Positions 2,413 to 32,121 of a stretch of 59,337 nt of DNA are shown here, piece by piece. The notes below the pieces were generated by a model, which saw only the letters and a program-made list of their open reading frames with translations, searched no databases and was not told the origin of the DNA. The stretch comes from a virus. Its lineage: Duplodnaviria; Caudoviricetes. The stretch is from positions 1 to 59,337 of IMG/VR virus record IMGVR_UViG_3300035684_000073; one strand, given 5' to 3'. Positions within the stretch are counted from its first letter, which is position 1. Every line of letters begins with the position of its first letter. A program made the translations under genes and the position numbers.

Positions 2413-2445
2413 CCCGCACCTTTTCCCTGAAGCCGGAGGCGACCA

Positions 2446-4023: not shown

Positions 4024-4035
4024 GAGGCTAACCCC

Positions 4036-5268: not shown

Positions 5269-5281
5269 CGGAGCAACGATC

Positions 5282-6019
5282 ATGGCCAGCAAGTCCAACT
5301 CGATCGAAAATCTCATCGCCGCATCGCAGTCGGCCCAATATCAGGCGCTCAGCCAGAAGGACCGCGTCCTGATCGAGGCGCTGCTCGTGGACCGCGGCAT
5401 TCTGAGCGCGGTGGGAACACCCACCCCTTCGCCGAGCCCGGCGCCCAGTCCGACGCCGACGACAACGACCACGACCACGACGACCATGAACCCGATCGTT
5501 CGCCTGGCCATGACGACGGTAAAGCCGGGCGATCTCATCACGGCCAGCTTCATGAACACGATCGTGGACGCGCTGTTCGCGCTCGACGAGCGGCTCACGA
5601 GGCTCGAGGCGCCGAAGCCCGCTTCGGGGCCGGCGCCCGCGCCATCGCCTACGTCTCCGGCCTCGTCAGCTCAGACCTCGATCAAGGAGGCTGCCTCCGA
5701 GTTCGTCGTCGGGCGAGAGGCACGTTTCGCAATCAGAGCGCAGCCGACCATCGAAGCCGCCGTTGCCACTACCGTGAAAGGGCTGGGCGTCCGCGTGGAA
5801 GTCACGGGGGACAATATCGGCCAGGGATTGGTCGGGAGCGTCGTCCTCGGCGAAACGAGATATGCGCCGGCGAGCCTGATCTTCACCAGGGCCGGGTTCA
5901 ACTTCGTCACCACGACCACGGTGATCAGGGCCGCGAAAAACCGGCTGACTGTCGTCACCTCGGCCGGCCAGGACAGCGCCACGATCCGGACGGCGGCCCC
6001 GCAAGAGCCGGTGCGGTAA
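5282..6019 (+). CDS. Hypothetical eCIS protein with Pro/Ser/Thr-rich linkers
   Basis: GGAG RBS; TPTPSPSPAPSPTP-T9 tract; VKPGDLITA motif; beta-rich C-terminus. Confidence 0.65.
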   Translation: MASKSNSIENLIAASQSAQYQALSQKDRVLIEALLVDRGILSAVGTPTPSPSPAPSPTPTTTTTTTTTMNPIVRLAMTTVKPGDLITASFMNTIVDALFALDERLTRLEAPKPASGPAPAPSPTSPASSAQTSIKEAASEFVVGREARFAIRAQPTIEAAVATTVKGLGVRVEVTGDNIGQGLVGSVVLGETRYAPASLIFTRAGFNFVTTTTVIRAAKNRLTVVTSAGQDSATIRTAAPQEPVR

Positions 6020-17599: not shown

Positions 17600-17673
17600 G
17601 CGGGCGTAGCATAGTGGTAATGCTCTAGCCTTCCAAGCTAGCTAGGAGGGTTCGATTCCCTTCGCCCGCTCCA
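17600..17673 (+). tRNA. tRNA-Gly (anticodon TCC), CCA encoded
   Basis: Acceptor GCGGGCG/CGCCCGC, D arm GCAT/ATGC, anticodon stem CTAGC/GCTAG with loop CTTCCAA, T loop TTCGATT, 3' TCCA. Confidence 0.97.
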
Positions 17674-19271
17674 CCGTTAACACGCATCGAGGCCGGCACT
17701 TCGGTGCCGGTCGCGAGCGCGATGATGGTCGCGAGGCGGCCTGTCAGCTCGATATGAAAACCGCGGCGTCCGCCGAGCGAAGTCAAGGTCACGCGGTCGA
17801 TCAGGCTCCGTACGATCGGCAAAGCCGTGTGGCGCGCCTCTTCTCCGTCGGACAGCGCCGCGGCCAGGCTCTCGACCTGGCGGCGATATTCGGTGGCGAT
17901 GCCGGGATGCAGGTCGATGACGCCCTGTGCCAGTTCGTCGATCCGCCGGAGCCGCTCGGCAAGCTCGTCGCGCTCCGCTTTGGCGGAGCCGAGCGCCGCG
18001 GCGATCTCCTCGATCCCGGAGAGACGCGGATCCGAGATCGCCGCGACCAGGCGCTGCACCTTGGCCGAGGCGTCGGCGTGGCGGCGCACCAGGCCGACAC
18101 GGTCGCGCCGGGCGGCCGCCGATCGACGGGCGAAGTCGTGATGAAATTCGCGAACGAAAGCGGCGACGAGATCGGGATCGAGCATCTGCTGCTGCAGCCC
18201 ATCGAGTACGCGCGCTTCGAGCCGGTGGGCCTTGATCCGGCCCTTGCTGCTGCAGCCGGCGCCTGCGGCCGCGCGGCCGCAGCCCCATTGGTTGCGCCCG
18301 CGCACGACCACGCGCCCGCCGCAGGCGCCGCAGAAGATCAGCCCCGAAAGGAGGTGCTTCGGCCGGCGGGCGCGCTCTGGCCGAGCGTGCGAAAGATCCT
18401 CGCGGCGCGCCTGCACGCGTTCCCATAGGTCGGCGGGCACGATCCTCAGTTCGGGCACCGGGTGCACAATCCACCCTTCCTCGGAATTGGGGCGGATCCG
18501 AGTCGCGCGCGTAAACGGGTCCGCGCGCTTGCTGGTACGGCCGTGCACCAGCTCGCCGGCATAGAGGCGGTTTCGAAGCAGGCCGTTCTGGCGCTTGCGG
18601 TCGCCGAGGATGGTCGATCGCGTCCATGCCCGCCCGCGCGGTCCGGGAATGTTGTCGGCGTTCAACCCTTCGGCGATGGCGCGGGGGCTTATGTCGCGGT
18701 CATATTCCTCGAATATGCGGCGCACGATCGTGGCCTGGTCAGGATCGATCTCGCGCAGCCCGCGCACAGGATCTCCGCGATCGTCGATGCGGTTGGCGCG
18801 CCGATAGCCATAAGCGAGGCCGCCCGGCGATCGGCCGACAGCGACGGCGCCGCGCTGGCCGCGCTTTACGCGCTCGGCGAGATCCTTGCGAAAGCGGGCG
18901 TCGAAGAGCCCTTTGATCGTGCCCGTGATATCATCGACAACGCCGTCGAGCAGGGTGAAGAGCCTGGCGCCGGCATAATCGAGGCGTTCGCGGATTGCGA
19001 ATGCGTCGCCCTGGTGGCGGGCGACGCGATCGGTGCTTTCGGCGAGCAGCTGGTCGGCTTGTCCGGCCTCGATCATTGCGAGCGCCTGCGCCAGCTGCGG
19101 CCTGGCCGCCTCATCTATGCCGGCGGCCCCGCTGATGGCATCGTCGGCAAAGACCCCGATGATCGGCCAGCCTTCGCGCGCCGCGCGAGCGCGGCAGTCG
19201 GCGATCTGGTCGGCAGTCGATCGCTTATTCTGAAGCTGGCTGCTGTATCGCGCGTAAATCACCGTTCGCAT
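17625..19271 (-). CDS. int: Large serine recombinase (prophage integrase)
   Basis: IYARYSS catalytic Ser, DRVAR, recombinase domain (LLRNRLYAG, LRIVPADLW), Zn ribbon LLSGLIFCGACG, coiled coil. Confidence 0.95.
   Translation of the reverse strand: MRTVIYARYSSQLQNKRSTADQIADCRARAAREGWPIIGVFADDAISGAAGIDEAARPQLAQALAMIEAGQADQLLAESTDRVARHQGDAFAIRERLDYAGARLFTLLDGVVDDITGTIKGLFDARFRKDLAERVKRGQRGAVAVGRSPGGLAYGYRRANRIDDRGDPVRGLREIDPDQATIVRRIFEEYDRDISPRAIAEGLNADNIPGPRGRAWTRSTILGDRKRQNGLLRNRLYAGELVHGRTSKRADPFTRATRIRPNSEEGWIVHPVPELRIVPADLWERVQARREDLSHARPERARRPKHLLSGLIFCGACGGRVVVRGRNQWGCGRAAAGAGCSSKGRIKAHRLEARVLDGLQQQMLDPDLVAAFVREFHHDFARRSAAARRDRVGLVRRHADASAKVQRLVAAISDPRLSGIEEIAAALGSAKAERDELAERLRRIDELAQGVIDLHPGIATEYRRQVESLAAALSDGEEARHTALPIVRSLIDRVTLTSLGGRRGFHIELTGRLATIIALATGTEVPASMRVNGGAGEGNRTLLASLEG
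17691..17712 (+). terminator. C(UUCG)G hairpin just 3' of the tRNA, inside int coding sequence
   Basis: GGCCGGCAC-TTCG-GTGCCGGTC; no U tract. Confidence 0.4.
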
Positions 19272-19952: not shown

Positions 19953-20206
19953 GCACCTGCCGGCGGCTCGCCGCCACCACTGGTCAGCATCGGCAGCTGC
20001 TTAAGAAAGAGGTCGCCGTGCTGCGCGACCAGTTTGGCGACGTCGAGCTGCAGCTTCATGCCGGCGACGATCTGATCCGACACGGCGACAACAGCATCGG
20101 AGCGCTTCACTTCCGCTTCGATCTGCTCGGGCGAGAGGGTTTCGTCGGTGAGCCTTTCGAGCTGGGCGAAAAGATGGTTGTTCAGGTCCGGAAGCTTGTT
20201 TTTCAC
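19949..20206 (-). CDS. Conserved phage protein typically upstream of this HNH gene
   Basis: KNKL.DLNNHLFAQLERL motif; NTGA overlaps at both ends. Confidence 0.8.
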   Translation of the reverse strand: MKNKLPDLNNHLFAQLERLTDETLSPEQIEAEVKRSDAVVAVSDQIVAGMKLQLDVAKLVAQHGDLFLKQLPMLTSGGGEPPAGA

Positions 20207-20358
20207 GACGGTTCCTTTTCGGCAGGTTGGGACGATGTTTGCCCCGCCGCGAGCGCGGCGAAGTGTCGGGCCGCCGTCGCGCGCGCGAGCGCCTTTGCCA
20301 GCTCAACCAGCTCCGGCGGAGGAGGCGGCTTGGCGCGGATCCTCGCCGGCGCGTTCAT
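20203..20358 (-). CDS. Small protein, candidate recombination directionality factor
   Basis: MNAPARIRAKPPPPPELVELAKALARATAARHF; coupled by ATGA/GTGA overlaps; role is inference. Confidence 0.5.
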   Translation of the reverse strand: MNAPARIRAKPPPPPELVELAKALARATAARHFAALAAGQTSSQPAEKEPS

Positions 20359-20687
20359 GCGATTTCGACCAGGCCGTGCCGGTAGCGCAGAGCGACATAG
20401 TCGACGGTGGGCATGCGGCCGGCGGCGCGGTCCTCCTCGAGCCAACGCTGGAGGAGGCTGTTCGCGTCGCGCGACGCCTTGCGGCCCGTTTCGCGCGCCG
20501 CCTGGTCGCCGCGCGACCCATAGCGCGTGTAGCGGCCGGCCGCCTGTAGCGGCGCGAGCACGGCACCGCGGGTGAGCCAGCGGTTGTTGTAAGCGCGCTT
20601 GTGAGTGGTGCTGCAGAAGATCTGGTGCGGCTGCACCTTGCGCAACTCGGCGAGGCATTCCGGGCAGCGGGCGGCGACCTTGTTCAC
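20355..20687 (-). CDS. Zn-finger-like phage protein
   Basis: CPEC..QIFCSTTHKRAYNNR; GTGA overlap start. Confidence 0.65.
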   Translation of the reverse strand: MNKVAARCPECLAELRKVQPHQIFCSTTHKRAYNNRWLTRGAVLAPLQAAGRYTRYGSRGDQAARETGRKASRDANSLLQRWLEEDRAAGRMPTVDYVALRYRHGLVEIA

Positions 20688-21043
20688 GCGGCCTGCCCCC
20701 CTTCGAAAGCGGCGGCGACGCGGCCGAGCAGCGCGGCGATCTCGGCGACGTTGGCGCGCCGCTCGGCGAGGGCCTGATTGTTCGGCCATGCGCGGCTCGC
20801 CTCCTCTCGCCTGGCGAGCGCCCGCGCGGCCGCCTCTGCGAGCGGCGTCCAAACCGGGCCGCGTTCTTCGCGGCCAAGCCTGAATTGCCCTTCGCCGATG
20901 AAAGCCGCGATCCGGCGCCAAGCCTGCAGATCATCGTCCGCCTCGCCCGGTGAGATCTCGCCGCGCTGGACCTGCGCCGGGTAGTGCTCGGCGCGCAGAT
21001 CGCGCTCGATCGCGGCCGCGGCGGCGAGTTCGGGCTTGATCAC
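20684..21043 (-). CDS. Hypothetical phage protein
   Basis: Member of NTGA-coupled leftward operon; R...YPAQVQRGEIS...AD motif. Confidence 0.7.
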   Translation of the reverse strand: MIKPELAAAAAIERDLRAEHYPAQVQRGEISPGEADDDLQAWRRIAAFIGEGQFRLGREERGPVWTPLAEAAARALARREEASRAWPNNQALAERRANVAEIAALLGRVAAAFEGGQAA

Positions 21044-21411
21044 CGTTCCCGTCCTGTTCCAGATGCACGGCGATGCGGAAGGGACGCGACGAATTGATCT
21101 ATATGGCGCTTATGGCGCTCGACGAGATCGCCGAGACGTGCGGTAGGGCGCCTGCCCAGAAGACGTGGGCGCTGCGCTTCATTCTCGCATGGCTCTTCGA
21201 GGCGAGCGGCGCCGACCCGGATCGCAAATGGATGTTCGAGCACTTTTGGAAGGACGCCACGCGCTCCGGCGGGGAATATCTGCAGTGTGTGGCGCGCGAA
21301 ACCGGCGCACAGTCCGCCTTGAACGGGATCACCCGCGCGTGCGGTTGGGAGCGCGACGTGCCCTTTCTTCACGAGATGAGCGCCAGGCGTAAGCGGAAAG
21401 GCTGACTTCAT
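21040..21411 (-). CDS. Bridge ORF antisense to 21073-21405
   Basis: ATG 21411 overlaps upstream TGA; TGA 21040-21042 overlaps downstream GTG 21043; product reads like an antisense shadow. Confidence 0.4.
   Translation of the reverse strand: MKSAFPLTPGAHLVKKGHVALPTARAGDPVQGGLCAGFARHTLQIFPAGARGVLPKVLEHPFAIRVGAARLEEPCENEAQRPRLLGRRPTARLGDLVERHKRHIDQFVASLPHRRASGTGRER
21073..21405 (+). CDS. Hypothetical cargo protein nested antisense in the leftward operon
   Basis: Protein-like helical composition (ALRFILAWLF..FEHFWK). Confidence 0.7.
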   Translation: MRKGRDELIYMALMALDEIAETCGRAPAQKTWALRFILAWLFEASGADPDRKWMFEHFWKDATRSGGEYLQCVARETGAQSALNGITRACGWERDVPFLHEMSARRKRKG

Positions 21412-21677
21412 CCGGCCCACCCATCGAGGAACCGGACGCACGCGCCGAGCAGCTGATTGCGCATCTGCGCTTCGTCGCGGTCGCCGCGATCATCGCCGGT
21501 TTCCGCAAATTCGACTTCCAGAGCCATTTTAAGCGCGTCGGCGAGCAGTTCGACAAGCTCAACGTCGCCGAACGGCGCGGGCCAGTTCGGGCCTTCCTTA
21601 GCGAAGCGTATCGGCTCGGCCGTGGCGGCGCTGGCTTGCACCGCCGCTGAGAGCGCAAGGCTGGCGGATGGGCTCAC
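21408..21677 (-). CDS. Hypothetical phage protein
   Basis: GTGA start overlap with 21674-21895; stop overlaps bridge ATG. Confidence 0.55.
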   Translation of the reverse strand: MSPSASLALSAAVQASAATAEPIRFAKEGPNWPAPFGDVELVELLADALKMALEVEFAETGDDRGDRDEAQMRNQLLGACVRFLDGWAG

Positions 21678-21895
21678 GATAGCCATGCCGCAACAATCGG
21701 CCGCGCCAGCTGCGCGCCGAAATAGAAGATCGCGAAGGCCGCGACGCCGTAGCCGGCGAGGCGCGACGCTCGATCTGCTCGGCGGCGCAGCTCGACGCCG
21801 GCACCGAAGCCGAGCAGCTGGCCGTGGATATGGCGCCGGCGTGCCGGTGTGAGCGTCGGCCGCGGTGCCGGCGTGGTGGTGAAGCGCCGGCTCAT
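21674..21895 (-). CDS. Small putative membrane protein
   Basis: C-terminal hydrophobic segment; ATGA overlap. Confidence 0.55.
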   Translation of the reverse strand: MSRRFTTTPAPRPTLTPARRRHIHGQLLGFGAGVELRRRADRASRLAGYGVAAFAIFYFGAQLARPIVAAWLS

Positions 21896-22275
21896 GCGTG
21901 CCCCCTGCGCAGCTCTTCGAGCCGGCTTGCGCAGGCGGCGAAGAGTGCGCCGAGCTGGTGCCCGTTTGCCTCTGCGATCGCCTCTTCCGCGAAGGCGAGG
22001 CGGCCGCTCTGATCGCGCAGCTCATCGCGACGCCTCTGCCAATCCGTCGTTTCGCATTTGGCAGGGCTGGGCGGCGCCGGCGACGCCGGCGCGATCGGCG
22101 GGCTGAGCAGCTCGCGAAGGCCGGTATTCAGGAAGTCGATCAGGCCAGGCTTGTCAGTCGGCACCTCGACCTGTTGCCAGCCCAGGCCGCTCACGACAGC
22201 GGCGCTCCTCGCCTCCGCCTGAGTGCCGAGCCAAACCTGCGTGACGCCGGGGCAGGTGGCAAGGTAAAGCCTCAT
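21892..22275 (-). CDS. Hypothetical phage protein
   Basis: W.GTQAEA..VEVPTDKPGLIDFLN; ATGA overlaps. Confidence 0.7.
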   Translation of the reverse strand: MRLYLATCPGVTQVWLGTQAEARSAAVVSGLGWQQVEVPTDKPGLIDFLNTGLRELLSPPIAPASPAPPSPAKCETTDWQRRRDELRDQSGRLAFAEEAIAEANGHQLGALFAACASRLEELRRGHA

Positions 22276-22649
22276 GCCGCCACCTTCGGAAAGAGGGCGA
22301 TCAGGTTCGCGAGGGTGGCGCTGCGAATGTCGCGGAGGCGCAGGGCCTGGTAGCGCTTGCGGCGGATCCTGGCGGCGCGCGACTGGCTCGGCCGCGTCCC
22401 TTCCGAGTGCACGAACCTTTCCAGCGCTTTCAGCTCGGCGCGTTCCTCTTCGTCGAGCGGCGTGCCGTCGAGCAGCTGCTCGATCGGGACGCGCTTGTTC
22501 CCGCTGGCGGCGCCGATGCGGCCGGGAAAGGAGATCGTCGCGAAGCCCTGCTGATCGTGCTGGTGGATCCGGACGGCGTGCGTCTTACCCTCCTCGTCGA
22601 AGAGGGCGAAGCTGCCCTGTTGTGGGTAGGGTGTCGGGGGTGAGAGCAT
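22272..22649 (-). CDS. First gene of leftward early operon, hypothetical
   Basis: AGGAGG RBS; downstream of pL-like region. Confidence 0.7.
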   Translation of the reverse strand: MLSPPTPYPQQGSFALFDEEGKTHAVRIHQHDQQGFATISFPGRIGAASGNKRVPIEQLLDGTPLDEEERAELKALERFVHSEGTRPSQSRAARIRRKRYQALRLRDIRSATLANLIALFPKVAA

Positions 22650-22679
22650 CGGGGCCTCCTGTTAATACAGGAGACGATC

Positions 22680-22719
22680 AATAGCCCAGACTATAGCCTA
22701 GTCAATAGTCAAAATTATA
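22680..22719 (-). promoter_or_regulatory. pL/oL-like region with two operators
   Basis: AATAG-N6-CTATA (22680-22695), AATAG-N6-TTATA (22704-22719); minus-strand TTGACT at 22705-22700. Confidence 0.7.
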
Positions 22720-22724
22720 GCACG

Positions 22725-23270
22725 TCAGTCGGTGCTCTCGCGATATCCAGCCTCCTGGTTTCGTGCACACGCTCCCGCCATGGCAAAATCGGTGACATCA
22801 GCTTGGGTGTATCTATCGTAGCAGTTCTCAAGTGCCGTGATCATGGCGGGGACCTGCAGATAGCGGTTCCAGATTTCGATGTAGTCGCTCCGCCCGCTCT
22901 CGGCGTTGCGACCGCACGCGGCACGCATGGAGAAATCGTCCGGATAGCGCTCCCCACAATGAGCGTCGCGGCTCGATTTCGCGTAGGCATCATCGGTCTT
23001 AACCTCGACTGGCTCGGGCACTAGCGCGGCTATCGGTGAAGAGGGTGCATCGGCCGACGACCTGGTGCTTGGTGGCGTCGACACGGCACACCACGAGACA
23101 AGCCCAAGGATTGATAAGGCGACCAATGCATTTCGCGTGCGGGCAGCCCGCCCATGGCGGTCTCCCTCGGTTATCTCGGCCTCGGTAAGCTCGTGATGGC
23201 AGAAGCGACACTTGGAGGCTCCGACCAAAATCCGTTCCCGACAGGCGGGGCAAGGAAAGGTCGCCGCCAT
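22725..23270 (-). CDS. Zn-ribbon + TM + Cys-repeat protein co-transcribed with cI
   Basis: CPAC..CRFC, one TM helix, duplicated C..RY..DF.M..AC.RN.E.G; start overlaps cI stop. Confidence 0.75.
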   Translation of the reverse strand: MAATFPCPACRERILVGASKCRFCHHELTEAEITEGDRHGRAARTRNALVALSILGLVSWCAVSTPPSTRSSADAPSSPIAALVPEPVEVKTDDAYAKSSRDAHCGERYPDDFSMRAACGRNAESGRSDYIEIWNRYLQVPAMITALENCYDRYTQADVTDFAMAGACARNQEAGYRESTD

Positions 23271-23932
23271 CAGATCCGTCTTCCGATCCAGATCACGCGA
23301 CCGATGACATACATTTCATCATCGACCGCGTGGAACGCCTGCACGGCAGGGTTGTCAGACATTACCGAATAGCTGCCGCCCGGCAGACGGCGAACACGCT
23401 TGATCATGCCCAAGTCTCCGTAGGCGATCGCCCAGACACGATCCTGTTGACGAATATCTTTCTGCGAAGTGTCGATCAGCACGATGTCGCCGTCCAACAG
23501 CGTCGGCTGCATCGAGTCTCCTTCGCCGCGCGCCACGAAAAGGTCTTCGAACGACCCTTTCATCATCGAACGTAGCCAATCGCGCTGAAACGGCACTATA
23601 CCGGTATGTTCATAGCTGTCGAAGATCGAGCCGCCGCCCATGCTGTAGCCAAGCTCCAGCTGCGGGACGAGAGCCAGGTTGAACTGCTCTGCAAACACAT
23701 CCGGCGAAGGCAACGTCAAAGCATTTTCCGCCGGATCTTCGGTTTTGCCTTCGAGGTAAGCGGGTGTGGTGCCGAGCACGGTGGCAATCTTGTGCAGATG
23801 CTTCGAGCCCTGATTATCACCTCGGATCAGGGCGTTGATGGTGGGCTGCGACACGCCGACCCTTCGCGCCAGTTCCGCCTGCGACATGTCGTGCCGGTTG
23901 AGCCGGTCTAAAATGCGATCGCCCAATGTCAT
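23270..23932 (-). CDS. cI: CI-like repressor (HTH XRE + S24 peptidase)
   Basis: MSQAELARRVGVSQPTI HTH; GDSMQPTL Ser and IKR Lys. Confidence 0.95.
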   Translation of the reverse strand: MTLGDRILDRLNRHDMSQAELARRVGVSQPTINALIRGDNQGSKHLHKIATVLGTTPAYLEGKTEDPAENALTLPSPDVFAEQFNLALVPQLELGYSMGGGSIFDSYEHTGIVPFQRDWLRSMMKGSFEDLFVARGEGDSMQPTLLDGDIVLIDTSQKDIRQQDRVWAIAYGDLGMIKRVRRLPGGSYSVMSDNPAVQAFHAVDDEMYVIGRVIWIGRRI

Positions 23933-23940
23933 ACAAGCAG

Positions 23941-24008
23941 ATTATAGGCTGGCCTATAATCTTCCACGAAGGTTTGCCTATTGACGCTGCTATAGCCATA
24001 GCTATACG
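23941..24008. promoter_or_regulatory. oR region with divergent pRM/pR-like promoters
   Basis: Palindrome ATTATAGGC-TG-GCCTATAAT (23941-23960); TATAG-N6-CTATA (23991-24006); TTGACG-16-TATACG toward cro; TATAAT toward cI. Confidence 0.8.
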
Positions 24009-24016
24009 AATAGCTC

Positions 24017-24430
24017 ATGAGCAAATCAGCCTTAGAGAGAGCAGTCGAGGCGGCGGGTGGACAATCTGCCTTTGCGCGCATCCATGGCGTCTCGCAGCCA
24101 ACCGTATGGGCATGGATCAAGAATGGTCGACCTTTGCCAGCGGAGCTCGTGCTTCGCACGGAGAGGGAGTGCGGCATCTCGCGTCACGAGCTGCGGCCGG
24201 ATATTTATCCCGTCGCTCAATCCTCGTCAGCAACTAAAGACGACGAAAATATTTGCGCGCCGGGGGAGGCTGACAGCCCTGGCCCTTTTCCGGATCCGGC
24301 GGCGACGCCGCCGCTCGCTTCCTGCCCGATCTGTTCTTCGAGCAGCCCAAGCCCGCACGGGCATTCCGGCACCATGCCGAGCCAAGCCTCTTCGACTTCG
24401 ACCGTCGGCGGGAAGGCTGAAGCGGCATGA
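24017..24430 (+). CDS. cro: Cro-like (YdaS-type) regulator with low-complexity tail
   Basis: AGGQSAFAR..GVSQPTVWAW..ISRHELRPDIY; divergent from cI. Confidence 0.9.
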   Translation: MSKSALERAVEAAGGQSAFARIHGVSQPTVWAWIKNGRPLPAELVLRTERECGISRHELRPDIYPVAQSSSATKDDENICAPGEADSPGPFPDPAATPPLASCPICSSSSPSPHGHSGTMPSQASSTSTVGGKAEAA

Positions 24431-24885
24431 AAAACGCGCTCGCTCACGACCTGTTTGAGGATCGGGCAGCCGGCGATCGTCCCGCTTTCCTACTGCGTCT
24501 TGCCCACCTTCCGGTAAACGGCGTCGTTGACGAAGGCCATGCGGCCCTCTGCGTCGACGTTCAATCCGCGCGCGGCGCACCAGGCGACGAACTCCTCCGG
24601 GTCGATTGGAACCCGAATGGGAAGCTGCCCTTCTGCCCTGAGCTGACGCTCGGCATGTTCTGCGCGGCTCTGCCACTTGTCGAACGTGAGGGGGAGCTTC
24701 TCACGATCCTCCATGACTTCGAGGGTCCGCCGGTAATCCTGGCGGCGATACCAGGCGATCCCGCAGGCGCGAACGCCGGGGCGGAGGTTGAACACGGACA
24801 AGGGCGATCTCCGGTCGTTGCGGGCCCTGCAAGCGTAGCCGAAGACCAACTCGTGGCAAGCCGTCTCCTCGGACGGCGCGAATGA
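24427..24885 (+). CDS. Bridge ORF antisense to 24490-24801
   Basis: ATGA overlaps with cro stop and with next gene start; shadow-like product. Confidence 0.4.
   Translation: MKNALAHDLFEDRAAGDRPAFLLRLAHLPVNGVVDEGHAALCVDVQSARGAPGDELLRVDWNPNGKLPFCPELTLGMFCAALPLVEREGELLTILHDFEGPPVILAAIPGDPAGANAGAEVEHGQGRSPVVAGPASVAEDQLVASRLLGRRE
24490..24801 (-). CDS. Hypothetical cargo protein nested antisense
   Basis: GIAWY..D..LP.TFDKW...AE..IDPEEFVAWC..RGL..DAEGR; GGAG RBS before TTG 24801 (alternative GTG 24795). Confidence 0.7.
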   Translation of the reverse strand: MSVFNLRPGVRACGIAWYRRQDYRRTLEVMEDREKLPLTFDKWQSRAEHAERQLRAEGQLPIRVPIDPEEFVAWCAARGLNVDAEGRMAFVNDAVYRKVGKTQ

Positions 24886-25379
24886 GCTGCGACCGCACGC
24901 TCTCGCTTCCGCCGCACCTGCAGGCGGGGAAGGTGGCGACGAAGGGCTTGATCCGGGCCGCCGGCGGTCAGGAGGCCGCATCCGCCGAGACGCACAAGTC
25001 GCAGCCGCGACTTTCGAGCTACGGCGCGACAAACACGCCCGATTTCATTCCGATCAACGACGTGGCGGCGCTCGAAGCGGTCACGCACGGCACGCCGGGG
25101 CACCCGCATGTCACGCGCTGGCTCGCGCGAGAAGCGGGGTTCGCGCTGGTGAAACTGCCCACGGCTCCGGTGGGCTTCACTGATTTTCATCGCGCGATCG
25201 GCGCCGTCTCCCGAGAAGTCGGCGAGGCGGTCGAGCTGGTCTGCGACGCGCTTGGCGACGACAACCAGGTGACGAAGCGGGAAGTGCGCGAGAAGAAGAT
25301 CGTCGAGAATATCGACGACGCCATCGAGCGCCTGATCGCGCTGCGCGGCCTCGCGCTCGATGCTCCGGAGACGATCTGA
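24882..25379 (+). CDS. CII-like phage regulatory protein
   Basis: Position after cro; ATKGLIRAAGGQEAA HTH-like start, FIPINDVAALE, LAREAGFALVKLP. Confidence 0.6.
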   Translation: MSCDRTLSLPPHLQAGKVATKGLIRAAGGQEAASAETHKSQPRLSSYGATNTPDFIPINDVAALEAVTHGTPGHPHVTRWLAREAGFALVKLPTAPVGFTDFHRAIGAVSREVGEAVELVCDALGDDNQVTKREVREKKIVENIDDAIERLIALRGLALDAPETI

Positions 25380-25624
25380 TGGCAGAGCCTCCCCGCTGCA
25401 CCTTCACCGTCGAGCCGCGCCGGACTCCCTCGATCGAGATCCGCGCCGCGATCGCGGATCGCGCGGCGGCGGCGCTGCTGAGCGGTGGTCGTGAATGTTC
25501 CGCCGGCTTCGAGCGCGATCGCGCCGGGCGCCTGGTGGTGGTCGAGTTGGAACCGGTGAGACAGCCGGGAAGCGGGTGCCCGCCAAAGTCATACTTTGGC
25601 GGGGTCCGGAGTGCGGGAGAGTGA
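25379..25624 (+). CDS. Hypothetical protein
   Basis: TGATG overlap with upstream gene. Confidence 0.4.
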   Translation: MAEPPRCTFTVEPRRTPSIEIRAAIADRAAAALLSGGRECSAGFERDRAGRLVVVELEPVRQPGSGCPPKSYFGGVRSAGE

Positions 25625-25627
25625 GGC

Positions 25628-26230
25628 GTGCAAGCGGGTACAAGCGCGAAGGATGGACGGATCGAGCAGTGCTGGACGCTCACCAGGGACGCCGTTGACG
25701 ATTTTCTGCGCACCGCGAAGGCCGGCGACCGCCTCGTCTATGCGTCGGGCTCGCACCTGCTGCAGACGGACGGCGTAAAGGCGATCAAGCGTGCCGCCGA
25801 TCTCAATCAGCTGGTGCTCAATTTCCGGCGAAAGTCGGCGACCGTCGGCGAATGGATCGCGACGCGCAAAAGGCCCGCCGCGGCCGAGCCGGCTCCGGCG
25901 CCGCGGCGGCCGATCGCGCCGCAGCTCGACTTCGACGAAGGGGCGCAGCTCATGGCGCTCCTGTGCAACCTGGCGCGCAACCGGCGGCCGTGCGGCACGA
26001 ACCGCGAGATCGGCGATATGCTCGGCGGGATCGCGCCGGAGCGGGTTTCCTATCTGCTGCGAAGGCAGGTCGCCGCGGAGGCGATCGCCGTCGAGCAGCT
26101 CGCCGGCGGCGTCCGCGTGGTGAGCATCCGTGCGAGCGGTCTGTCGACCGCGCGCCCGGAGCGTCCGGGGGACGCTTCGGGCGAGGAGGGCCAGGCTTGC
26201 GGCCTGACGACGGCGAGGCCGGAGCAATGA
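25628..26230 (+). CDS. Hypothetical protein with C-terminal winged-HTH-like region
   Basis: PCGTNREIGDMLG..ERVSYLL. Confidence 0.6.
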   Translation: MQAGTSAKDGRIEQCWTLTRDAVDDFLRTAKAGDRLVYASGSHLLQTDGVKAIKRAADLNQLVLNFRRKSATVGEWIATRKRPAAAEPAPAPRRPIAPQLDFDEGAQLMALLCNLARNRRPCGTNREIGDMLGGIAPERVSYLLRRQVAAEAIAVEQLAGGVRVVSIRASGLSTARPERPGDASGEEGQACGLTTARPEQ

Positions 26231-26430
26231 AGGGGACCTGTCACCGCGGCCATAAGAGGGCAGCGGGCCTCGCCTTTGCCCGCGCCTGGCGCGAGGAGAA
26301 TCGGGCGCGCTTCGACGAAATGGATCGGCAAGGTCTGTTCTCCGACAGTTGGGCTCGCTGCCCTATCGGCGTCTCCGCGCCCGAATGGCCGCTTTCGCCC
26401 CAAAGGATCAATTTGGAGCGCTCAAGATGA
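26227..26430 (+). CDS. Hypothetical protein
   Basis: GGAG RBS; ATGA overlaps both ends. Confidence 0.5.
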   Translation: MKGTCHRGHKRAAGLAFARAWREENRARFDEMDRQGLFSDSWARCPIGVSAPEWPLSPQRINLERSR

Positions 26431-26792
26431 CCCGCTATCCGCAGCCGGGCGAGGTCCCGCACTGGTTTCTGCCGCCGGCGCCGCCGGCGCGGATTCGCTG
26501 CCAGGGCTGTTCGGCCGAGACACTGGCGCCGCCCGACGAGGCTCCGGAGGGCTGGGCGGGCACTTATGCGCTCGGCGCGCACGGCGCGGGCTGGCGCTTC
26601 ACCTGCGCCACCTGCAGCCTTCACTTTGGCGGCCCGGTGGTCGGTCACGTTCGGCCGGGCGCCGATCGACCGATCGTGGTCGTTTCGCACGAAGGTGGCT
26701 TCGACGCGACGATCGCCGAGGCGCGGATCCTGCACGCTGCGCTCGGCGGCGCTCTGGCGATCGCCGGCCGCGGCGATGGGAACAAGCCATGA
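26427..26792 (+). CDS. Hypothetical Zn-binding protein
   Basis: CQGC and CATC pairs; ATGA overlaps. Confidence 0.55.
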   Translation: MTRYPQPGEVPHWFLPPAPPARIRCQGCSAETLAPPDEAPEGWAGTYALGAHGAGWRFTCATCSLHFGGPVVGHVRPGADRPIVVVSHEGGFDATIAEARILHAALGGALAIAGRGDGNKP

Positions 26793-27067
26793 CTTCGCCG
26801 GATCGCGTGCCCCCGAACGCGCCCGGCGGCGCCGGAGCGCCTGCAAGCGCTTCGGCGCAACCTTGCTGGCCGGAGCGCCATATCGCCCGGCGCAACGCCG
26901 CCAAGCACCATTTGGAAGCGTGCGGGTTCTGGGTCGGCCGCGCCGATCCCGACCCCGCCGCCACGGCGCTGACGAAGTGGCAGGTTTCGGGCGTGGCCGG
27001 CCACTTCGTCGATGGCGAGCTGGTCGCCTTCGCCCGGCAATATGGCTTCGAAGGGGGCGAGGCGTGA
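26789..27067 (+). CDS. Hypothetical protein
   Basis: ATGA/GTGA overlaps. Confidence 0.5.
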   Translation: MTSPDRVPPNAPGGAGAPASASAQPCWPERHIARRNAAKHHLEACGFWVGRADPDPAATALTKWQVSGVAGHFVDGELVAFARQYGFEGGEA

Positions 27068-28515
27068 AGATCGGCGGCTATGCGGCAATCTTCGATCACG
27101 TCGATCGCGGCGGCGACGTCGTGCGGCCGGGCGCGTTCGACCGGACCTTGCGGCTTCGGAGCGCGGGCGCCGTGCCGCTGCTGTGGCAGCACGCGATGGC
27201 GCGGCCGATCGGCGGGATCGACGCACTCGCGGTGGATGGGCGGGGCCTGCACATGCGCGGCACGTTGCGCGATCCTGTCGCGGCCATGCTGGTGCGCGCC
27301 GGAAAGATCACGGGCCTGAGTTTTGGCTATCGCCCCCGCAAGGTTCGGATGGGCGAGGCCTGGCGACAGCTGATCGAACTCGACCTGGTCGAAATCTCGA
27401 TCGTCATGGACCCGATGCAGCCACAGGCGCGGGTCGCGCCAATCAATGGCGGCGCCCCCGACGCGCTACAGGTCCGACACGCGGATCATGATCGGGCCGG
27501 GCTCGCCGGCGGCGGCGCGCCGCTCGGCGATGACGAGGATCTGATCGAGGCGGTTGCGCACGAAGCTTTCGCGCTGCCGCGCGTCCATGCGCCCGGCGCT
27601 TTCGGGCGGGAGTCCGAGATAATCCTCGATCGTCTCGCGGCTGATCACGATCCAGCGTTTCGGCGCGCGGCGGCCGCCCACGTTGCCAAGCGGCACGTGC
27701 ACGTGAACGTCATCGCCCTGCGGAAAAACGAGCGGCGCTGCCATGGCGCTGCCTTACCACCTCTCGAGATCCGCAACGTAGAAGAGGGGAGGATCGGTTC
27801 GATAAGTACGGCCGATGACCTTGTATTGCACGCCGAGTTCAAGGTCCCAAAATCTTCTCCGATCCAGCTCCAGGCGCAGCGTTGGCATGGCCGGATCGTC
27901 CGTCGCGATGCTCAGCACGCCCAAATCGCGGGTGATTACGCCCACGAGCGTTTCCAAAGTCGAACCGAGGTCGTTGGCCCACTTGTCGAACGCAACTCGG
28001 GACTGGAGGTAATCGGACGCGGGGTCGGTGCCTCTTGCCGCCCGCAGGGCCATCGCAACGGCAGCCTGGATGTGGATCCGACTTTCGTTCGAGCCCTGGA
28101 CGTAGATATCGATCCGTTCGATGCGGCCATGGTCGACCGGAGCGGCGAGTGCCTCCACCGCACGGGTGGCCGCAGACGGGGGCGGGCGACTGCTGCTCCT
28201 CAGCAAGATCTCGATCGTATCTCTGATGTTCTGGACGAAGCCGCCGAGAATAGCGCGGTGGTCAAGGAGCTTGTCAGCGACCTCGAAAAGCGTGGCCAGC
28301 GTCGCAAAGAGGCTGCCGCTGCGAACATTGTGGATGGTCAAGTGACCGGTCATGCCGCGCTCACGGCAATAGACGGCAAAGGCCTCACTAATGCGGGCGA
28401 GAATCTCGCCGGTATCGAAGGCGGACACAGGTTGCCAACTTCGGACTTCGATTTCGAGAAATGGATCGCTCATGAGTCGATGCTGGCGCACCCCGCGCTC
28501 GGGGGCAAGCCGTGA
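27064..28515 (+). CDS. HK97-family prohead protease domain (~27064-27440) with long read-through extension antisense to two genes
   Basis: GYAAIFD.VDRGGDVVRPGAF, PLLWQH, GLSFGY, EISIV..PMQPQARV; GTGA overlaps at start and stop. Confidence 0.8.
   Translation: MKIGGYAAIFDHVDRGGDVVRPGAFDRTLRLRSAGAVPLLWQHAMARPIGGIDALAVDGRGLHMRGTLRDPVAAMLVRAGKITGLSFGYRPRKVRMGEAWRQLIELDLVEISIVMDPMQPQARVAPINGGAPDALQVRHADHDRAGLAGGGAPLGDDEDLIEAVAHEAFALPRVHAPGAFGRESEIILDRLAADHDPAFRRAAAAHVAKRHVHVNVIALRKNERRCHGAALPPLEIRNVEEGRIGSISTADDLVLHAEFKVPKSSPIQLQAQRWHGRIVRRDAQHAQIAGDYAHERFQSRTEVVGPLVERNSGLEVIGRGVGASCRPQGHRNGSLDVDPTFVRALDVDIDPFDAAMVDRSGECLHRTGGRRRGRATAAPQQDLDRISDVLDEAAENSAVVKELVSDLEKRGQRRKEAAAANIVDGQVTGHAALTAIDGKGLTNAGENLAGIEGGHRLPTSDFDFEKWIAHESMLAHPALGGKP
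27466..27744 (-). CDS. Small cargo protein, possibly DUF1488-like
   Basis: ISRETIEDYL...F..N....I...A...I...DL pattern. Confidence 0.6.
   Translation of the reverse strand: MAAPLVFPQGDDVHVHVPLGNVGGRRAPKRWIVISRETIEDYLGLPPESAGRMDARQRESFVRNRLDQILVIAERRAAAGEPGPIMIRVSDL
27754..28473 (-). CDS. Hypothetical cargo protein (239 aa)
   Basis: Lower GC; protein-like sequence with I.NVRSGSL motif; ATG 28473. Confidence 0.65.
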   Translation of the reverse strand: MSDPFLEIEVRSWQPVSAFDTGEILARISEAFAVYCRERGMTGHLTIHNVRSGSLFATLATLFEVADKLLDHRAILGGFVQNIRDTIEILLRSSSRPPPSAATRAVEALAAPVDHGRIERIDIYVQGSNESRIHIQAAVAMALRAARGTDPASDYLQSRVAFDKWANDLGSTLETLVGVITRDLGVLSIATDDPAMPTLRLELDRRRFWDLELGVQYKVIGRTYRTDPPLFYVADLERW

Positions 28516-28874
28516 CGGCCAGTGTGTTCGCCGAAATCGCGTTCGCAATCGGCTGCGCGGCGCGTGCGGCCGAGATCCAGGAGGCGATCGTCGGCGAAAC
28601 GATTGAGGCGCTCAAAGCCGCCCGGATCGAGCAGATCGGGAAGCACGGGCACGACGCCGAGCATGACGCCATGCTGCCGATCGATCAGCTGCCGCGGCTC
28701 GCGCAGGGTCGGATCGTGCACGCGCTCGATCAGATCCAGGCATTCGCCGGCGCCCGCAACCTGCCTGCAGCTCGCCTCAATCTGCTGCGCGGCGCGGCGA
28801 TCCTGCTCGCGGCCGTCGATCGCCTGGCGCCCGTGATTGCCGCCGGCATGGGAAGCGAAGGGGAAGAGCATTGA
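28512..28874 (+). CDS. Hypothetical phage protein
   Basis: R.EQIGKHGHDAEHD..L.RGAAILLAAVDRL; coupled both ends. Confidence 0.7.
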   Translation: MTASVFAEIAFAIGCAARAAEIQEAIVGETIEALKAARIEQIGKHGHDAEHDAMLPIDQLPRLAQGRIVHALDQIQAFAGARNLPAARLNLLRGAAILLAAVDRLAPVIAAGMGSEGEEH

Positions 28875-29458
28875 GCCAAGATCGAAACATCACGGTCGGC
28901 AAGAGCTGGCCGAGGCCGGCTACGCCGTGCGCGCTGGCGCCGAATTGGGAAGGCGAGTTCCGCGACTTCGACGATTGGGTCAGCTTCGCATCGAAGCGGC
29001 TCACAGTGGCGAGCGACAGCAACGGTGCCGATCTGTCGGCGATCTGCGTCGATGCCCTCGGCCGCCGCTGTCATAACGGCCGCGACTTCGCGCGGGCCCG
29101 CGATGAAGGCGCCTTTCCGGTGCGCTATTTCTTCGAGTGCCGCCAGCCGGCGATCGAGCCCGACGGCCTGGCGCAGCTGCGCGATGCGATCCCCAAGTTG
29201 GACCAGGCGCTCGGCGAGATGGTCGATGATCACACGACAAGCGCGAACCATCACCCGGCGCACGTGCTGGTGCCCGTCGCGGCCTTCGAGACCGTCAAAG
29301 ACTTTGTGCAGCTGGCGCGGCGCATAAAGCAGCAGGCCGAAAGTATCGGCGAGCTGCCCCCGGTCGACGGCGGGCCAACGGCGGGCCTGGCGCCAGGCTA
29401 TGCGATCGATGCCGCCGGTTGCCCGGTGCACGTCGGCCGCGACGGCGGCGCGTTGTGA
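28871..29458 (+). CDS. Hypothetical phage protein
   Basis: FDDWVSFA..CVDALGRRC..GRDFARARDEGAFPVRY; TTGA overlap. Confidence 0.7.
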   Translation: MSQDRNITVGKSWPRPATPCALAPNWEGEFRDFDDWVSFASKRLTVASDSNGADLSAICVDALGRRCHNGRDFARARDEGAFPVRYFFECRQPAIEPDGLAQLRDAIPKLDQALGEMVDDHTTSANHHPAHVLVPVAAFETVKDFVQLARRIKQQAESIGELPPVDGGPTAGLAPGYAIDAAGCPVHVGRDGGAL

Positions 29459-30994: not shown

Positions 30995-32121
30995 TGGCAG
31001 GGGCAGGGGGGCAGGGCCGCGGCAGTGATGCTTCCGCGGGCGTTGGGGCGCCGGCGCAGCTTTTGGCGCGTCTTAAGCTCGGCGTTCCGACGAAGCCCGA
31101 CGGTTCGATCGATTGGCCGGCGCCGGATCCGTCGAGCCCGTTTTTTGTGCAGGCGCCGTGCCTGGTGAGCTTTTCGGGCGGCCGCACGTCGGCGCTTATG
31201 CTCTTCCTGATCTTGTGGGCGCACGGCGGCGAGCTGCCGCCTGGCGTTTTCGTTTGTTTCGCCAATACGGGCAAAGAGCGCGAGGAAACGCTGCGGTTCC
31301 TCTATGAGTGTGGCCTCCGCTGGGGCGTTCGGATCCGCATAGTCGAATGGCGCCGCCCGGACGCGGCGAAGGGCAAGAGGCTTCCCCCTGATCAGCGCTT
31401 CGAGGAAGTCGGTTTCAATAGTGCTGCCCGCAATGGTGAGCCGTTTGTCGCTCTAATCGAAAATCGCGGCTTTCTCCCCAATGTCGCAACCCGCTTTTGC
31501 ACGTCGGACCTGAAGATCAACACATTGGACGCCTTTATGAGGGCGCAGGGTTTCGACCGCTGGTCTAACGCTGTCGGGCTGCGCGCCGATGAAATGCACA
31601 GGGTGTTTAAGCAAGTCGAGCGGAACAAGGCTGCGCGCCGGTCGACGGCGATCATGCCGCTCGCAGTGGCGGGCATCACTAAGCAAGACGTGATGGCCTT
31701 CTGGGCTCGGCAGCCGTTCAACCTGCAGCTACGCGGCTACGAAGGGAATTGCGACCTTTGCTTTTTGAAAGGCGAGCGGATCCTCCGGCGGCTCGTCCGC
31801 GACAACCCCGGAATGGCGGGCTGGTGGAAAGAGCAGGAAGGGCAGCGCGCCGGCGCCACTCGCGATCCAGCGATGGCGAATTTCTCGCGCCGCTACACTT
31901 ACGCCGGGTTGGAGGCTGAAGTCGGCGCGAGTGCGCTGCTCGATCTCGATTTGATGAGCGAAGATGAAGAGTTCGATGCCGAATGCGGGTTGACGTGTGG
32001 CGGTGATGATAGCCCGATCTCTTTCGACGCCGCGGCCGCGGTCGACCGCATGTTGGCCGATGTCGAGCTAAGGCGCGCGGCCGAGGATTGGCAAAGCCGG
32101 CAAGGCGGGCTCGATCTGTGA
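30994..32121 (+). CDS. PAPS-reductase-family (PP-loop) phage protein
   Basis: VSFSGGRTS, FANTGKE..ETLRF, RFCT..LK, GLRADE, GNCDLCFLK. Confidence 0.85.
   Translation: MAGAGGQGRGSDASAGVGAPAQLLARLKLGVPTKPDGSIDWPAPDPSSPFFVQAPCLVSFSGGRTSALMLFLILWAHGGELPPGVFVCFANTGKEREETLRFLYECGLRWGVRIRIVEWRRPDAAKGKRLPPDQRFEEVGFNSAARNGEPFVALIENRGFLPNVATRFCTSDLKINTLDAFMRAQGFDRWSNAVGLRADEMHRVFKQVERNKAARRSTAIMPLAVAGITKQDVMAFWARQPFNLQLRGYEGNCDLCFLKGERILRRLVRDNPGMAGWWKEQEGQRAGATRDPAMANFSRRYTYAGLEAEVGASALLDLDLMSEDEEFDAECGLTCGGDDSPISFDAAAAVDRMLADVELRRAAEDWQSRQGGLDL

What the first reader, a model, noticed from the sequence alone, without database searches (positions are those of the whole stretch)
21040..28515. Recurrent architecture: opposite-strand cargo genes nested in 'bridge' ORFs coupled at both ends
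Seen three times in the early operons: (a) + gene 21073-21405 inside - ORF 21411-21040; (b) - gene 24801-24490 inside + ORF 24427-24885; (c) - genes 27744-27466 and 28473-27754 inside + ORF 27064-28515. In each case cargo and bridge are codon-in-register, and the bridge begins and ends with exact 4-bp NTGA overlaps to flanking operon genes (six of six junctions). In-register antisense frames are often open in GC-rich DNA, so openness alone is weak; the exact junctions are the signal. Inference: a way to carry lysogen-expressed accessory genes (e.g. defence) within a lytic operon while ribosomes traverse the insert, preserving coupling and avoiding Rho polarity, with reciprocal antisense control. 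I know of no described system like this.
Basis: partly seen in the sequence, partly recalled or inferred. Interest (0 to 1): 0.85.

Follow-up and report, generated by a model that had tools for sequence, protein, structure and literature searches.

The report
Read-through ORFs spanning opposite-strand phage genes
In a GC-rich temperate phage, the three places where a gene sits backwards inside an early operon are each crossed by an open reading frame on the operon strand that joins the neighbouring genes exactly, probably so that ribosomes can keep moving along the operon.

Summary
All three "bridge" ORFs, their in-register opposite-strand genes and all six NTGA junctions are in the sequence. 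They are the only opposite-strand genes nested in the two early operons.

The bridges are not ordinary genes. They have an antisense codon signature and no homologs. Bridge c is a real 134-aa S78 protease domain that runs on for 349 codons. The cargo strand is the coding one.

Openness alone is weak evidence: 19 of 40 genes have an open in-register antisense frame. Phase plus openness plus junctions is unlikely by chance: about 4e-6 even if the NTGA contexts are granted.

In related prophages, all 10 spacers between cro and the next gene are spanned by ORFs: 8 single ORFs, 2 chains. The 8 single ORFs overlap by 4 nt at both ends and lack codon bias. One encloses a different antisense gene.

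Best reading (0.55): these are pass-through ORFs kept open to preserve translational coupling. The nearest precedents are mycobacterial MIRUs and "delivery" uORFs.

Lysogenic expression, a defence role and Rho avoidance are untested. No RNA data exist. This is a new variant of a known kind.

The parts
21040..21411 (-). Pass-through ORF a (123 codons). Its ATG overlaps the stop of 21408-21686 (ATGA) and its TGA overlaps the GTG of 20684-21043 (GTGA).
   Evidence: GC by codon position is 0.78/0.54/0.57, an antisense signature. Coding score is -0.14 per codon. No Pfam or PHROG hit.
21073..21405 (+). Cargo a, a 110-aa gene on the opposite strand, 29 nt and 2 nt from the flanking operon genes.
   Evidence: GC3 is 0.80. 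Sense over in-register antisense is +36.2 bits. No homolog in phages or viral contigs.
21408..21686 (-). Operon gene upstream of insert a (92 aa).
   Evidence: tblastn homolog in L109/L116 at 47% identity. There the same ...LDGW.G* end carries an ATGA whose ATG starts a real downstream gene.
20684..21043 (-). Operon gene downstream of insert a (119 aa, GTG start preceded by AGGAC).
   Evidence: GC3 is 0.83.
24017..24430 (+). Cro-like gene: HTH in residues 1-76, then a 60-residue S/P/T-rich tail.
   Evidence: phrog_35 at 1.5e-19 over residues 1-74. The 22 homologs align only to residues 1 to about 66-87.
24427..24885 (+). Pass-through ORF b (152 codons), ATGA at both ends, linking cro to the cII-like gene.
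   Evidence: GC is 0.82/0.47/0.65. Log-odds per codon is -0.01 against a median of 0.40 for window genes. No family hit. Positional counterparts in relatives.
24490..24801 (-). Cargo b, a 103-aa gene (TTG start with GGAG 7-8 nt upstream).
   Evidence: phrog_4753 at 8e-22. 36% identity to Burkholderia phage Bcep176 gp17. +13.7 bits sense over antisense.
24882..25379 (+). CII-like activator gene downstream of insert b.
   Evidence: Pfam Phage_CP76 at 4.6e-7. phrog_101 at 4.9e-14.
26227..26430 (+). A fourth ORF (67 codons) with ATGA at both ends and no codon bias. It fills a 196-nt gap and holds no opposite-strand gene.
   Evidence: (log-odds per codon -0.03).
27064..27465 (+). S78 prohead-protease domain gene (134 aa) with no stop codon of its own.
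   Evidence: Pfam PF04586 at 6.5e-23 over residues 3-125. phrog_80 at 8e-34. Relatives are mostly 122-160 aa and end 5-35 residues after the ...ARV motif.
27466..28515 (+). Run-on of the protease frame (349 codons), in-register antisense to c1 and c2. Its TGA overlaps the GTG of 28512-28874.
   Evidence: In an exhaustive HMMER search, 149 of the 150 hits listed (6771 had E <= 0.001) align only within query residues 1-177; the only one reaching further is the ORF's own record. The GC-phase profile switches strand at about 27440.
27466..27744 (-). Cargo c1 (92 aa), with AAGG 7 nt before its ATG.
   Evidence: GC3 is 0.86. +21.9 bits. Only itself in the 5.8-billion-protein search. Atlas lead to DUF1488, score 0.83, a lead only.
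27754..28473 (-). Cargo c2 (239 aa), in the same frame as c1 and separated from it by TAA plus 9 nt.
   Evidence: GC3 is 0.72. +32.2 bits. Only itself in the protein search. Weak leads only.
28512..28874 (+). Operon gene downstream of insert c (120 aa).
   Evidence: GC3 is 0.81.. No family hit.
22650..22724 (-). AT-rich, promoter-like spacer with a strong AGGAGG site at the head of the minus-strand early operon.
   Evidence: Sequence printed. Function inferred only.

Best explanation
The bridges are pass-through (relay) ORFs. They are not protein genes in the usual sense. Each opposite-strand gene interrupts an early operon whose genes are otherwise joined stop-to-start. On the operon mRNA, a ribosome that finishes the upstream gene re-initiates at the ATG or GTG overlapping its TGA. 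It then reads across the insert in the frame that is codon-for-codon antisense to the cargo. It terminates on a TGA that overlaps the start codon of the next operon gene, so the ribosome is delivered there and the mRNA is never left bare. In case c the upstream gene itself, an S78 protease domain, has no stop and simply runs on. Selection acts on phase, openness and the two junctions, not on the peptide. What is shown: the ORFs, the junctions, the antisense signature, coding on the cargo strand, and recurrence of coupled bias-free ORFs at the cro site in relatives. What is inferred: that the bridges are translated, that they sustain downstream translation or prevent polarity, and when the cargo is expressed.
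For: 1. The six junctions and the in-register frames are verified.
2. The bridges carry an antisense codon signature and have no homologs. The cargo frames score +14 to +36 bits over them, whereas only 1.3% of 229 chunks of known genes score at or below 0.
3. These are the only nested opposite-strand genes in the window, and all three sets are bridged.
4. With the bridges and ORF 26227-26430 counted, both early operons become gap-free chains. 13 of 21 ordinary junctions are 4-nt overlaps. The 68-nt gap disappears if the ATG at 30994 is used as the start.
5. Simulation granting the NTGA contexts gives P(bridge) = 0.042, 0.019 and 0.0048. P(open given the observed phase) = 0.37, 0.18 and 0.046. 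TTA/CTA/TCA count in the cargo: 3.8 expected, 0 seen.
6. Among 17 informative cro loci (16 relatives plus the window), 7 join cro directly to a gene. Eight have one ORF of 14-189 codons with 4-nt overlaps at both ends (in L129 the next gene is cut by the contig end). Two have chains. No spacer is left unspanned. Per-locus chance is 0.0003-0.22.
7. All eight of these ORFs score -0.56 to +0.12 log-odds per codon. In the 7 loci that have reference genes, that is below the minimum of the locus genes.
8. In L165 the bridge (168 codons, ATGA/GTGA) encloses a different antisense gene: 68 aa, log-odds 0.39 per codon, with an AAGGA site.
9. Crude control: a doubly coupled ORF spans 0 of 119 gaps holding an antisense core in GC-rich bacterial loci.
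10. The principle is in print for MIRUs and delivery uORFs (passages of PMC12548453).
Against: 1. There are no expression data of any kind; no RNA run is listed.
2. Comparators exist only for site b. No homolog of the flanks or cargo of sites a and c was found, apart from the gene upstream of a.
3. The ATGA at the stop of the gene upstream of a is ancestral: in L109 it starts a real gene. So junction contexts can be relics, and only phase and openness then need explaining.
4. Read-through in c would attach 349 residues of nonsense to a protease-domain protein, which looks costly.
5. The downstream genes have Shine-Dalgarno-like sites of their own, read by eye, so coupling may not be needed.
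6. My automated survey did not retrieve more clear cases. 2 of 19 nested groups in relatives were doubly coupled; on inspection one was a miscall. Of 3 of 26 gaps with an antisense core, two were miscalls and one was ambiguous. Some confidently nested genes elsewhere, such as L164, are open but not coupled.
7. The long cro-site ORFs of L111 and L165 could be ordinary orphan genes.
8. All statistics are post hoc, on a pattern picked by eye.
Confidence: 0.55

Rival explanations
1. Chance shadow ORFs plus relic junctions. The opposite-strand genes replaced or were inserted next to genes of a tightly overlapped operon. The NTGA motifs are left over from the former couplings. The in-register antisense frame happens to be open, as is common in GC-rich DNA. 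Nothing is selected or translated.
For: 19 of 40 genes have fully open in-register antisense frames. 13 of 21 ordinary junctions are NTGA overlaps, so such contexts are everywhere. The ATGA at the stop of the gene upstream of a is ancestral. Chain-following through NTGA also runs through off-frame junk inside real gene 25628-26230, so a start codon over a TGA stop is nearly automatic. The pattern was picked by eye.
Against: Even granting all the NTGA contexts, the joint chance of correct phase and openness is about 0.042 x 0.019 x 0.0048, and all three nested sets show it. Coupled bias-free ORFs recur at the cro site in independent relatives. In bacterial control loci, 0 of 119 gaps with an antisense core are bridged.
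Confidence: 0.25
2. True dual coding. The bridges encode functional proteins that overlap the cargo genes antisense, like the long antisense overlapping genes reported in Pseudomonas aeruginosa.
For: The ORFs are long (123-483 codons) and have start codons in coupling position. Translated antisense 'shadow' ORFs are reported in the literature (search listing and abstract of PMC8850804).
Against: There is no codon bias. No homolog exists for any bridge part, including in an exhaustive HMMER search for bridge c. Positional counterparts in relatives share no sequence similarity and range from 14 to 189 codons.
Confidence: 0.1
3. The cargo ORFs are the artefacts, and the bridges are the real genes of the operon.
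For: The bridges fit the operon's overlap grammar. Cargo a, c1 and c2 have no homologs.
Against: Cargo frames win the codon test by +14 to +36 bits. Cargo b has a PHROG family and a Bcep176 homolog, while bridge b gives no hit on the same locus. The protease family ends where c1 begins.
Confidence: 0.03
4. In-place inversion of former operon genes, or invertible segments, left the old start and stop junctions behind.
For: It would explain exact junctions and in-register frames in one step. Short imperfect inverted repeats flank inserts a and c.
Against: The repeats are 10-20 nt, 75-100% complementary, no more than expected in GC-rich DNA, and not mirror-consistent. The cargo genes carry their own start, stop and, for b and c1, ribosome-binding sites inside the bridge. 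The source contig shows one orientation only.
Confidence: 0.05

Closest known systems
MIRUs (mycobacterial interspersed repetitive units). Source: Supply et al. 1997 as described in the review PMC12548453; passages read, the original paper was not read.
   Same: A segment is inserted into a GC-rich operon and spanned by an ORF on the operon strand. That ORF is coupled to the flanking gene with a 4-nt overlap. The proposed effect is that the insertion costs little downstream expression.
   Different: MIRUs are short, repeated, non-coding units. Here the inserts are unrelated 0.3-1 kb protein-coding genes on the opposite strand, and the pass-through frame is their antisense frame. No repeat family is present.
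Ribosome-'delivering' short upstream ORFs and termination-reinitiation coupling. Sources: review PMC12548453, passages; PMC6728339, listing and abstract only.
   Same: The ORF's only job is to bring a ribosome to the next start codon through an ATGA/GTGA overlap. The peptide is irrelevant.
   Different: Those ORFs are short leaders at the head of a gene. Here they are 123-483 codons long, lie inside an operon, and read antisense through another gene.
Long antisense embedded overlapping genes ('shadow ORFs') of GC-rich bacteria. Sources: PMC8850804 and 10.1101/2021.02.09.430400, listing and abstracts.
   Same: Long open frames antisense to a real gene in GC-rich DNA, claimed to be translated.
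   Different: That claim is for a functional second protein under purifying selection. Here there is no codon bias, no conservation, and the distinctive feature is the pair of exact junctions.
Phage morons and the opposite-strand block next to cII in Burkholderia phage Bcep176. The moron concept is recalled, not from a call; the Bcep176 locus is.
   Same: Accessory genes sit inside an early region. A homolog of cargo b (gp17) lies beside a CII-like gene in the opposite orientation.
   Different: In Bcep176 the block gp15-gp20 has a 189-nt divergent intergenic region, and no operon-strand ORF spans it. Morons are described as carrying their own promoter and terminator (recalled).

Membership tests
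Shadow ORF (in-register antisense frame of a real gene in GC-rich DNA) | Codons coincide with those of a real gene on the other strand | tested here: met
   true for all four cargo genes.
Shadow ORF (in-register antisense frame of a real gene in GC-rich DNA) | GC1 exceeds GC3, there is no codon bias, and there are no homologs | tested here: met
   No hits.
Translationally coupled ORF (termination-reinitiation) | Co-directional ORFs whose stop and start codons overlap (ATGA, GTGA or TGATG) | tested here: met
   six of six junctions; 13 of 21 other junctions.
Translationally coupled ORF (termination-reinitiation) | Translation of the downstream ORF depends on translation of the upstream one | not testable with these tools
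   This needs reporter or ribosome-profiling data. No RNA run is listed.
MIRU-type insertion with pass-through ORF | The inserted segment carries an ORF coupled with a 4-nt overlap to the flanking gene(s) | tested here: met
   Feature definition taken.
MIRU-type insertion with pass-through ORF | A short, repeated, mobile non-coding unit | tested here: not met
   The inserts are 364, 451 and 1046 nt. They encode unrelated genes. No shared repeat was found, and the bridges show no similarity to relatives.
Antisense overlapping gene pair (both strands encode functional proteins) | Both frames show coding signature or conservation | tested here: not met
   Only the cargo frames do. There are no bridge homologs.
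Caudovirus prohead protease S78 (N-terminal part of bridge c) | Pfam PF04586 above the gathering score, with conserved His and Ser motifs | tested here: met
   82.1 bits against a cut-off of 21. H43 and S86 are invariant in alignment A1. Their catalytic role is recalled, not tested.
Anti-phage defence gene (cargo) | Match to a known defence family | tested here: not met
   PADLOC: 0 families for a, b and c1. c2 gives only PglZ at E = 0.0013 and 14.9 bits.

The most novel reading that the evidence does not exclude
GC-rich temperate phages of this lineage keep their early operons as unbroken ribosome tracks. An insertion, including a backwards accessory gene, persists only if one operon-strand frame can be read straight through it and lands on the next start codon. 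Cargo genes are therefore shaped to avoid TTA/CTA/TCA, and their in-register antisense frame becomes a working part of the lytic mRNA. This would also make cargo expression and lytic read-through mutually exclusive, giving a built-in lysogeny/lysis switch for the cargo.
Probability: 0.25. Interest if true: 0.8.

Novelty: new variant of a known kind. Interest (0 to 1): 0.6.

Why it matters
If true, 'shadow' ORFs that annotators discard would have a mechanical job: carrying ribosomes across foreign or backwards DNA inside an operon. That would:

- explain how phages take up opposite-strand accessory genes without breaking early gene expression;
- predict a measurable codon constraint on such genes;
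- give a simple rule for inserting payloads into coupled operons;
- warn annotators that a 483-aa 'protease' such as bridge c is a 134-aa domain plus read-through.

It can be tested directly with one silent stop codon.

Tried and rejected
**Close relatives.**
- Megablast of 20000-29000 against phages found no match.
- tblastn of cargo a against phages found nothing.
- The primase found only distant phages.
- The search for related loci in viral contigs with the CII-like gene, cargo b, cargo a, dn(c) and c1 gave no relatives.
- With the protease it gave 12 distant loci.
- The genome-contig scan with protease alignment A1 returned 80 Sphingomonadales loci. These are GTA-type head clusters; the portal-protease-capsid order was seen in L017 only. 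None shares any other window gene, so they say nothing about site c.

**Expression.** No RNA holder is listed. The one DNA run is the probable source of the record.

**Signals.**
- The promoter/terminator scan was uninformative: 2 promoter-like sites against 1.1 expected.
- Rfam gave 0 matches at E <= 0.1.
- Inverted and direct repeats around the inserts are short, imperfect, and judged to be chance.

**Gene callers.**
- My first frame-segmentation script was too fragmented.
- A first core-finder was too strict.
- The working one miscalls small genes. It missed cro and swallowed part of c1.
- The nested-gene surveys built on it are therefore rough controls only. It did not retrieve the window's own cases a and b as bridged; I verified those by hand.
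- On inspection, its hits in L105, L109 and L118 were miscalls and L121 was ambiguous.

**Cargo and other ORFs.**
- Minus-strand ORF 24217-24447, considered as a second cargo, was rejected: GC3 0.65, no ribosome-binding site, no hit.
- Atlas leads for c1 (DUF1488, 0.83) and c2 (RloG/DUF7946, at most 0.90) are below the level that counts as evidence.

**Not done.** No structure prediction and no complex prediction were run. Supplementary files of papers were not consulted. The MIRU original (Supply 1997) was not read; only the review's passage was.

Full report
**What the record is.** The window is the whole record: 59,337 bp, one contig, at 61-72% GC. It looks like a temperate phage or prophage.
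- A recombinase-sized ORF lies at 17625-19271 on the minus strand.
- A minus-strand early operon runs from 22649 down to 19293, behind an AT-rich promoter-like spacer.
- A CI-type repressor is at 23270-23932 on the minus strand (phrog_4, 3.9e-46).
- A Cro-like gene is at 24017 and a CII-like gene at 24882.
- A plus-strand operon runs on through a primase at 32118-35240 into late genes.
- The closest relatives of its repressor and of its S78 domain are in Sphingomonadales. The host assignment is therefore an inference.

**The observation.** One search confirms:
- the six junction 4-mers are ATGA, GTGA, ATGA, ATGA, GTGA, GTGA;
- the codons of all four cargo genes coincide with bridge codons;
- across the inserts, the bridge frame has 0 stops while the other two operon-strand frames have 3/3, 5/6 and 9/9.

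My gene map and junction census show that these are the only opposite-strand genes nested in the two early operons. The pattern is therefore three of three.

Two details need correcting. Junction c-up is just the normal start of a real gene.

**Which strand codes.**
- GC by codon position marks the bridges as antisense: a is 0.78/0.54/0.57 and b is 0.82/0.47/0.65. The cargo looks like sense, with GC3 of 0.80, 0.82, 0.86 and 0.72. The phase profile flips strand at about 27440.
- A codon-usage likelihood test was calibrated on 229 chunks of known genes, where 1.3% scored at or below 0. It gives the cargo frames +36.2, +13.7, +21.9 and +32.2 bits over the bridge frames.
- Cargo b matches phrog_4753 (8e-22) and Bcep176 gp17 (36%). 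Bridge b gives no hit on that locus.
- Bridge c begins with a genuine S78 prohead-protease domain (Pfam 6.5e-23, residues 3-125).
- An exhaustive HMMER search of 1.84 billion representatives found 6771 relatives. Of the 150 listed, 149 align only within query residues 1-177; the one reaching further is the ORF's own record. Most listed relatives are 122-160 aa. Codons 135-483 are therefore a run-on, antisense to c1 and c2.
- c1 and c2 have no relatives in the word-indexed 5.8-billion-protein search. Only weak Atlas leads exist: DUF1488 for c1; RloG/DUF7946 for c2.

**Is it more than chance?**
- Openness alone is not. TTA/CTA/TCA codons are 3.7 per 1000, and 19 of 40 presumed genes have a completely open in-register antisense frame, some over 500 codons long.
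- With early-gene codon usage, the four cargo genes should hold 3.8 such codons. They hold none (P0 = 0.022).
- A start codon over a TGA stop is also close to automatic in this DNA. Chain-following through NTGA runs even through off-frame junk inside gene 25628-26230. 13 of 21 ordinary junctions are 4-nt overlaps.
- In L109 a homolog of the gene upstream of insert a ends with the same ...LDGW.G* plus ATGA, and there the ATG starts a real gene. So junction contexts can be relics.
- I therefore granted the NTGA contexts and randomised only phase, synonymous codons and spacers. P(complete bridge) = 0.042 (a), 0.019 (b) and 0.0048 (c). With the observed phases fixed, P(open) = 0.37, 0.18 and 0.046. 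The joint figures are about 4e-6 and 3e-3. They are post hoc, but hard to dismiss when all three nested sets show the pattern.
- As a crude empirical control, a doubly coupled ORF spans 0 of 119 gaps holding an antisense core in GC-rich bacterial loci, and 18 of 418 empty gaps.

**Relatives.** A metagenome scan with a repressor alignment gave 80 loci.
- 22 loci carry a Cro homolog and 7 carry a CII homolog. None carries any cargo, any bridge, or the downstream genes of sites a or c.
- Of the 22 Cro loci, 4 run off the contig and 2 duplicate others. That leaves 16 informative loci plus the window, 17 in all.
- 7 of the 17 join cro directly to a gene.
- 8 have a single ORF that starts on cro's stop (ATGA in all eight) and ends on the next start codon: L096 (14 codons), L109 (23), L118 (34), L129 (34; the next gene is cut by the contig end), L099 (44), window (152), L165 (168) and L111 (189).
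- 2 have chains of ORFs (L110, L113).
- No spacer is left unspanned.
- Granting the junction contexts, chance per locus is 0.12-0.22 for the four short ORFs with a known downstream gene (0.09 for L129) and 0.0003-0.008 for the long ones.
- All eight score -0.56 to +0.12 coding log-odds per codon. In the seven loci that have reference genes, this is below the minimum of the locus genes; the medians there are 0.40-0.46. They are open and exactly placed, yet look non-coding.
- The L165 bridge encloses a different antisense gene: 68 aa, log-odds 0.39 per codon, GC3 0.79, AAGGA before its ATG. It is not in register.
- The window also has a fourth such ORF with no cargo (26227-26430, ATGA at both ends, log-odds -0.03).
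- With these ORFs counted, the 11-kb plus-strand operon from cro to the primase and the 3.4-kb minus-strand operon are unbroken chains of ORFs joined by overlaps or gaps of 3 nt or less.

**Mechanism.** The best-supported reading is a pass-through ORF. The ribosome terminates and re-initiates at the upstream NTGA, translates across the insert, and terminates on the next gene's start codon.
- This idea is in print for MIRU insertions in mycobacterial operons and for short 'delivery' ORFs (review PMC12548453, passages).
- What differs here is that the insert is a protein-coding gene on the other strand, and the pass-through frame is its antisense frame.
- I put this at 0.55.
- Against it: no expression data; comparators for one site only; a costly 349-residue tail on the protease domain in c; Shine-Dalgarno-like sites before the downstream genes (read by eye); and an automated survey that found no further clear cases.
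- Chance plus relic junctions stays at 0.25.
- From recall only: in phage lambda the cro-cII spacer must stay untranslated for N to act at nutR. A translated spacer here would therefore imply a different control logic.

**Verdict.** This is a new variant of a known kind. It is of moderate to high interest because a single silent stop codon could test it.

Noticed in passing
window 27064-27465: An S78 prohead-protease domain gene sits in the early region, far from the late genes. Its nearest relatives (50-60% identity) are the short proteases of what look like GTA-type head clusters in Sphingomonadales genomes (portal, small ORF, protease, capsid-sized ORF in L017). Whether the phage also has a late protease was not checked.
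   Followed up: partly
window 27466-28473: Cargo genes c2 and c1 lie in the same minus-strand frame, separated only by TAA plus 9 nt. They could be one former gene split by a stop codon, or a stop-and-restart pair.
   Followed up: no
window 27748-28542 (run X1): A low-depth (3.1) 264-nt contig of the source metagenome matches 27689-27748 and 28542-28663 at about 90%, with 67 other letters in place of the 793 nt that hold c2. The net difference is 726 nt, which is 3 x 242. It may be a relative lacking c2, or noise. Its letters were not available.
   Followed up: no
window 24245-24430; loci L096-L165: The Cro-like ORF carries a 60-residue S/P/T-rich tail beyond the HTH. Homologs align only to about the first 66 residues, and Cro ORF lengths range from 70 to 166 aa among relatives. 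Cro tails may themselves be run-on sequence.
   Followed up: partly
window 22650-22724: An AT-rich spacer with repeated GACTA/TTGACTAGGCTATAGT-like motifs and a strong AGGAGG site lies ahead of the minus-strand early operon. It is probably the early-left promoter and operator region.
   Followed up: no
L064 15363-15695 and the same relative place in many loci of L014-L093: In Sphingomonadales loci fetched with the protease, my crude caller repeatedly called a minus-strand core of about 330 nt between two plus-strand genes, 3-5 kb downstream of the protease. It is either a systematic miscall or a conserved opposite-strand gene.
   Followed up: no
L013 (Bcep176) 2305-5488: In Burkholderia phage Bcep176, the homolog of cargo b (gp17) lies in a six-gene block (gp15-gp20) that faces away from the CII-like gene gp14. 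No operon-strand ORF spans that block.
   Followed up: partly
protein P0004 (417 aa): One relative of the protease domain (62% identity over residues 1-127) continues into a 290-residue extension that looks like a real protein. This differs from the junk-like extensions of P0125 and of the window. Its context could not be fetched.
   Followed up: no
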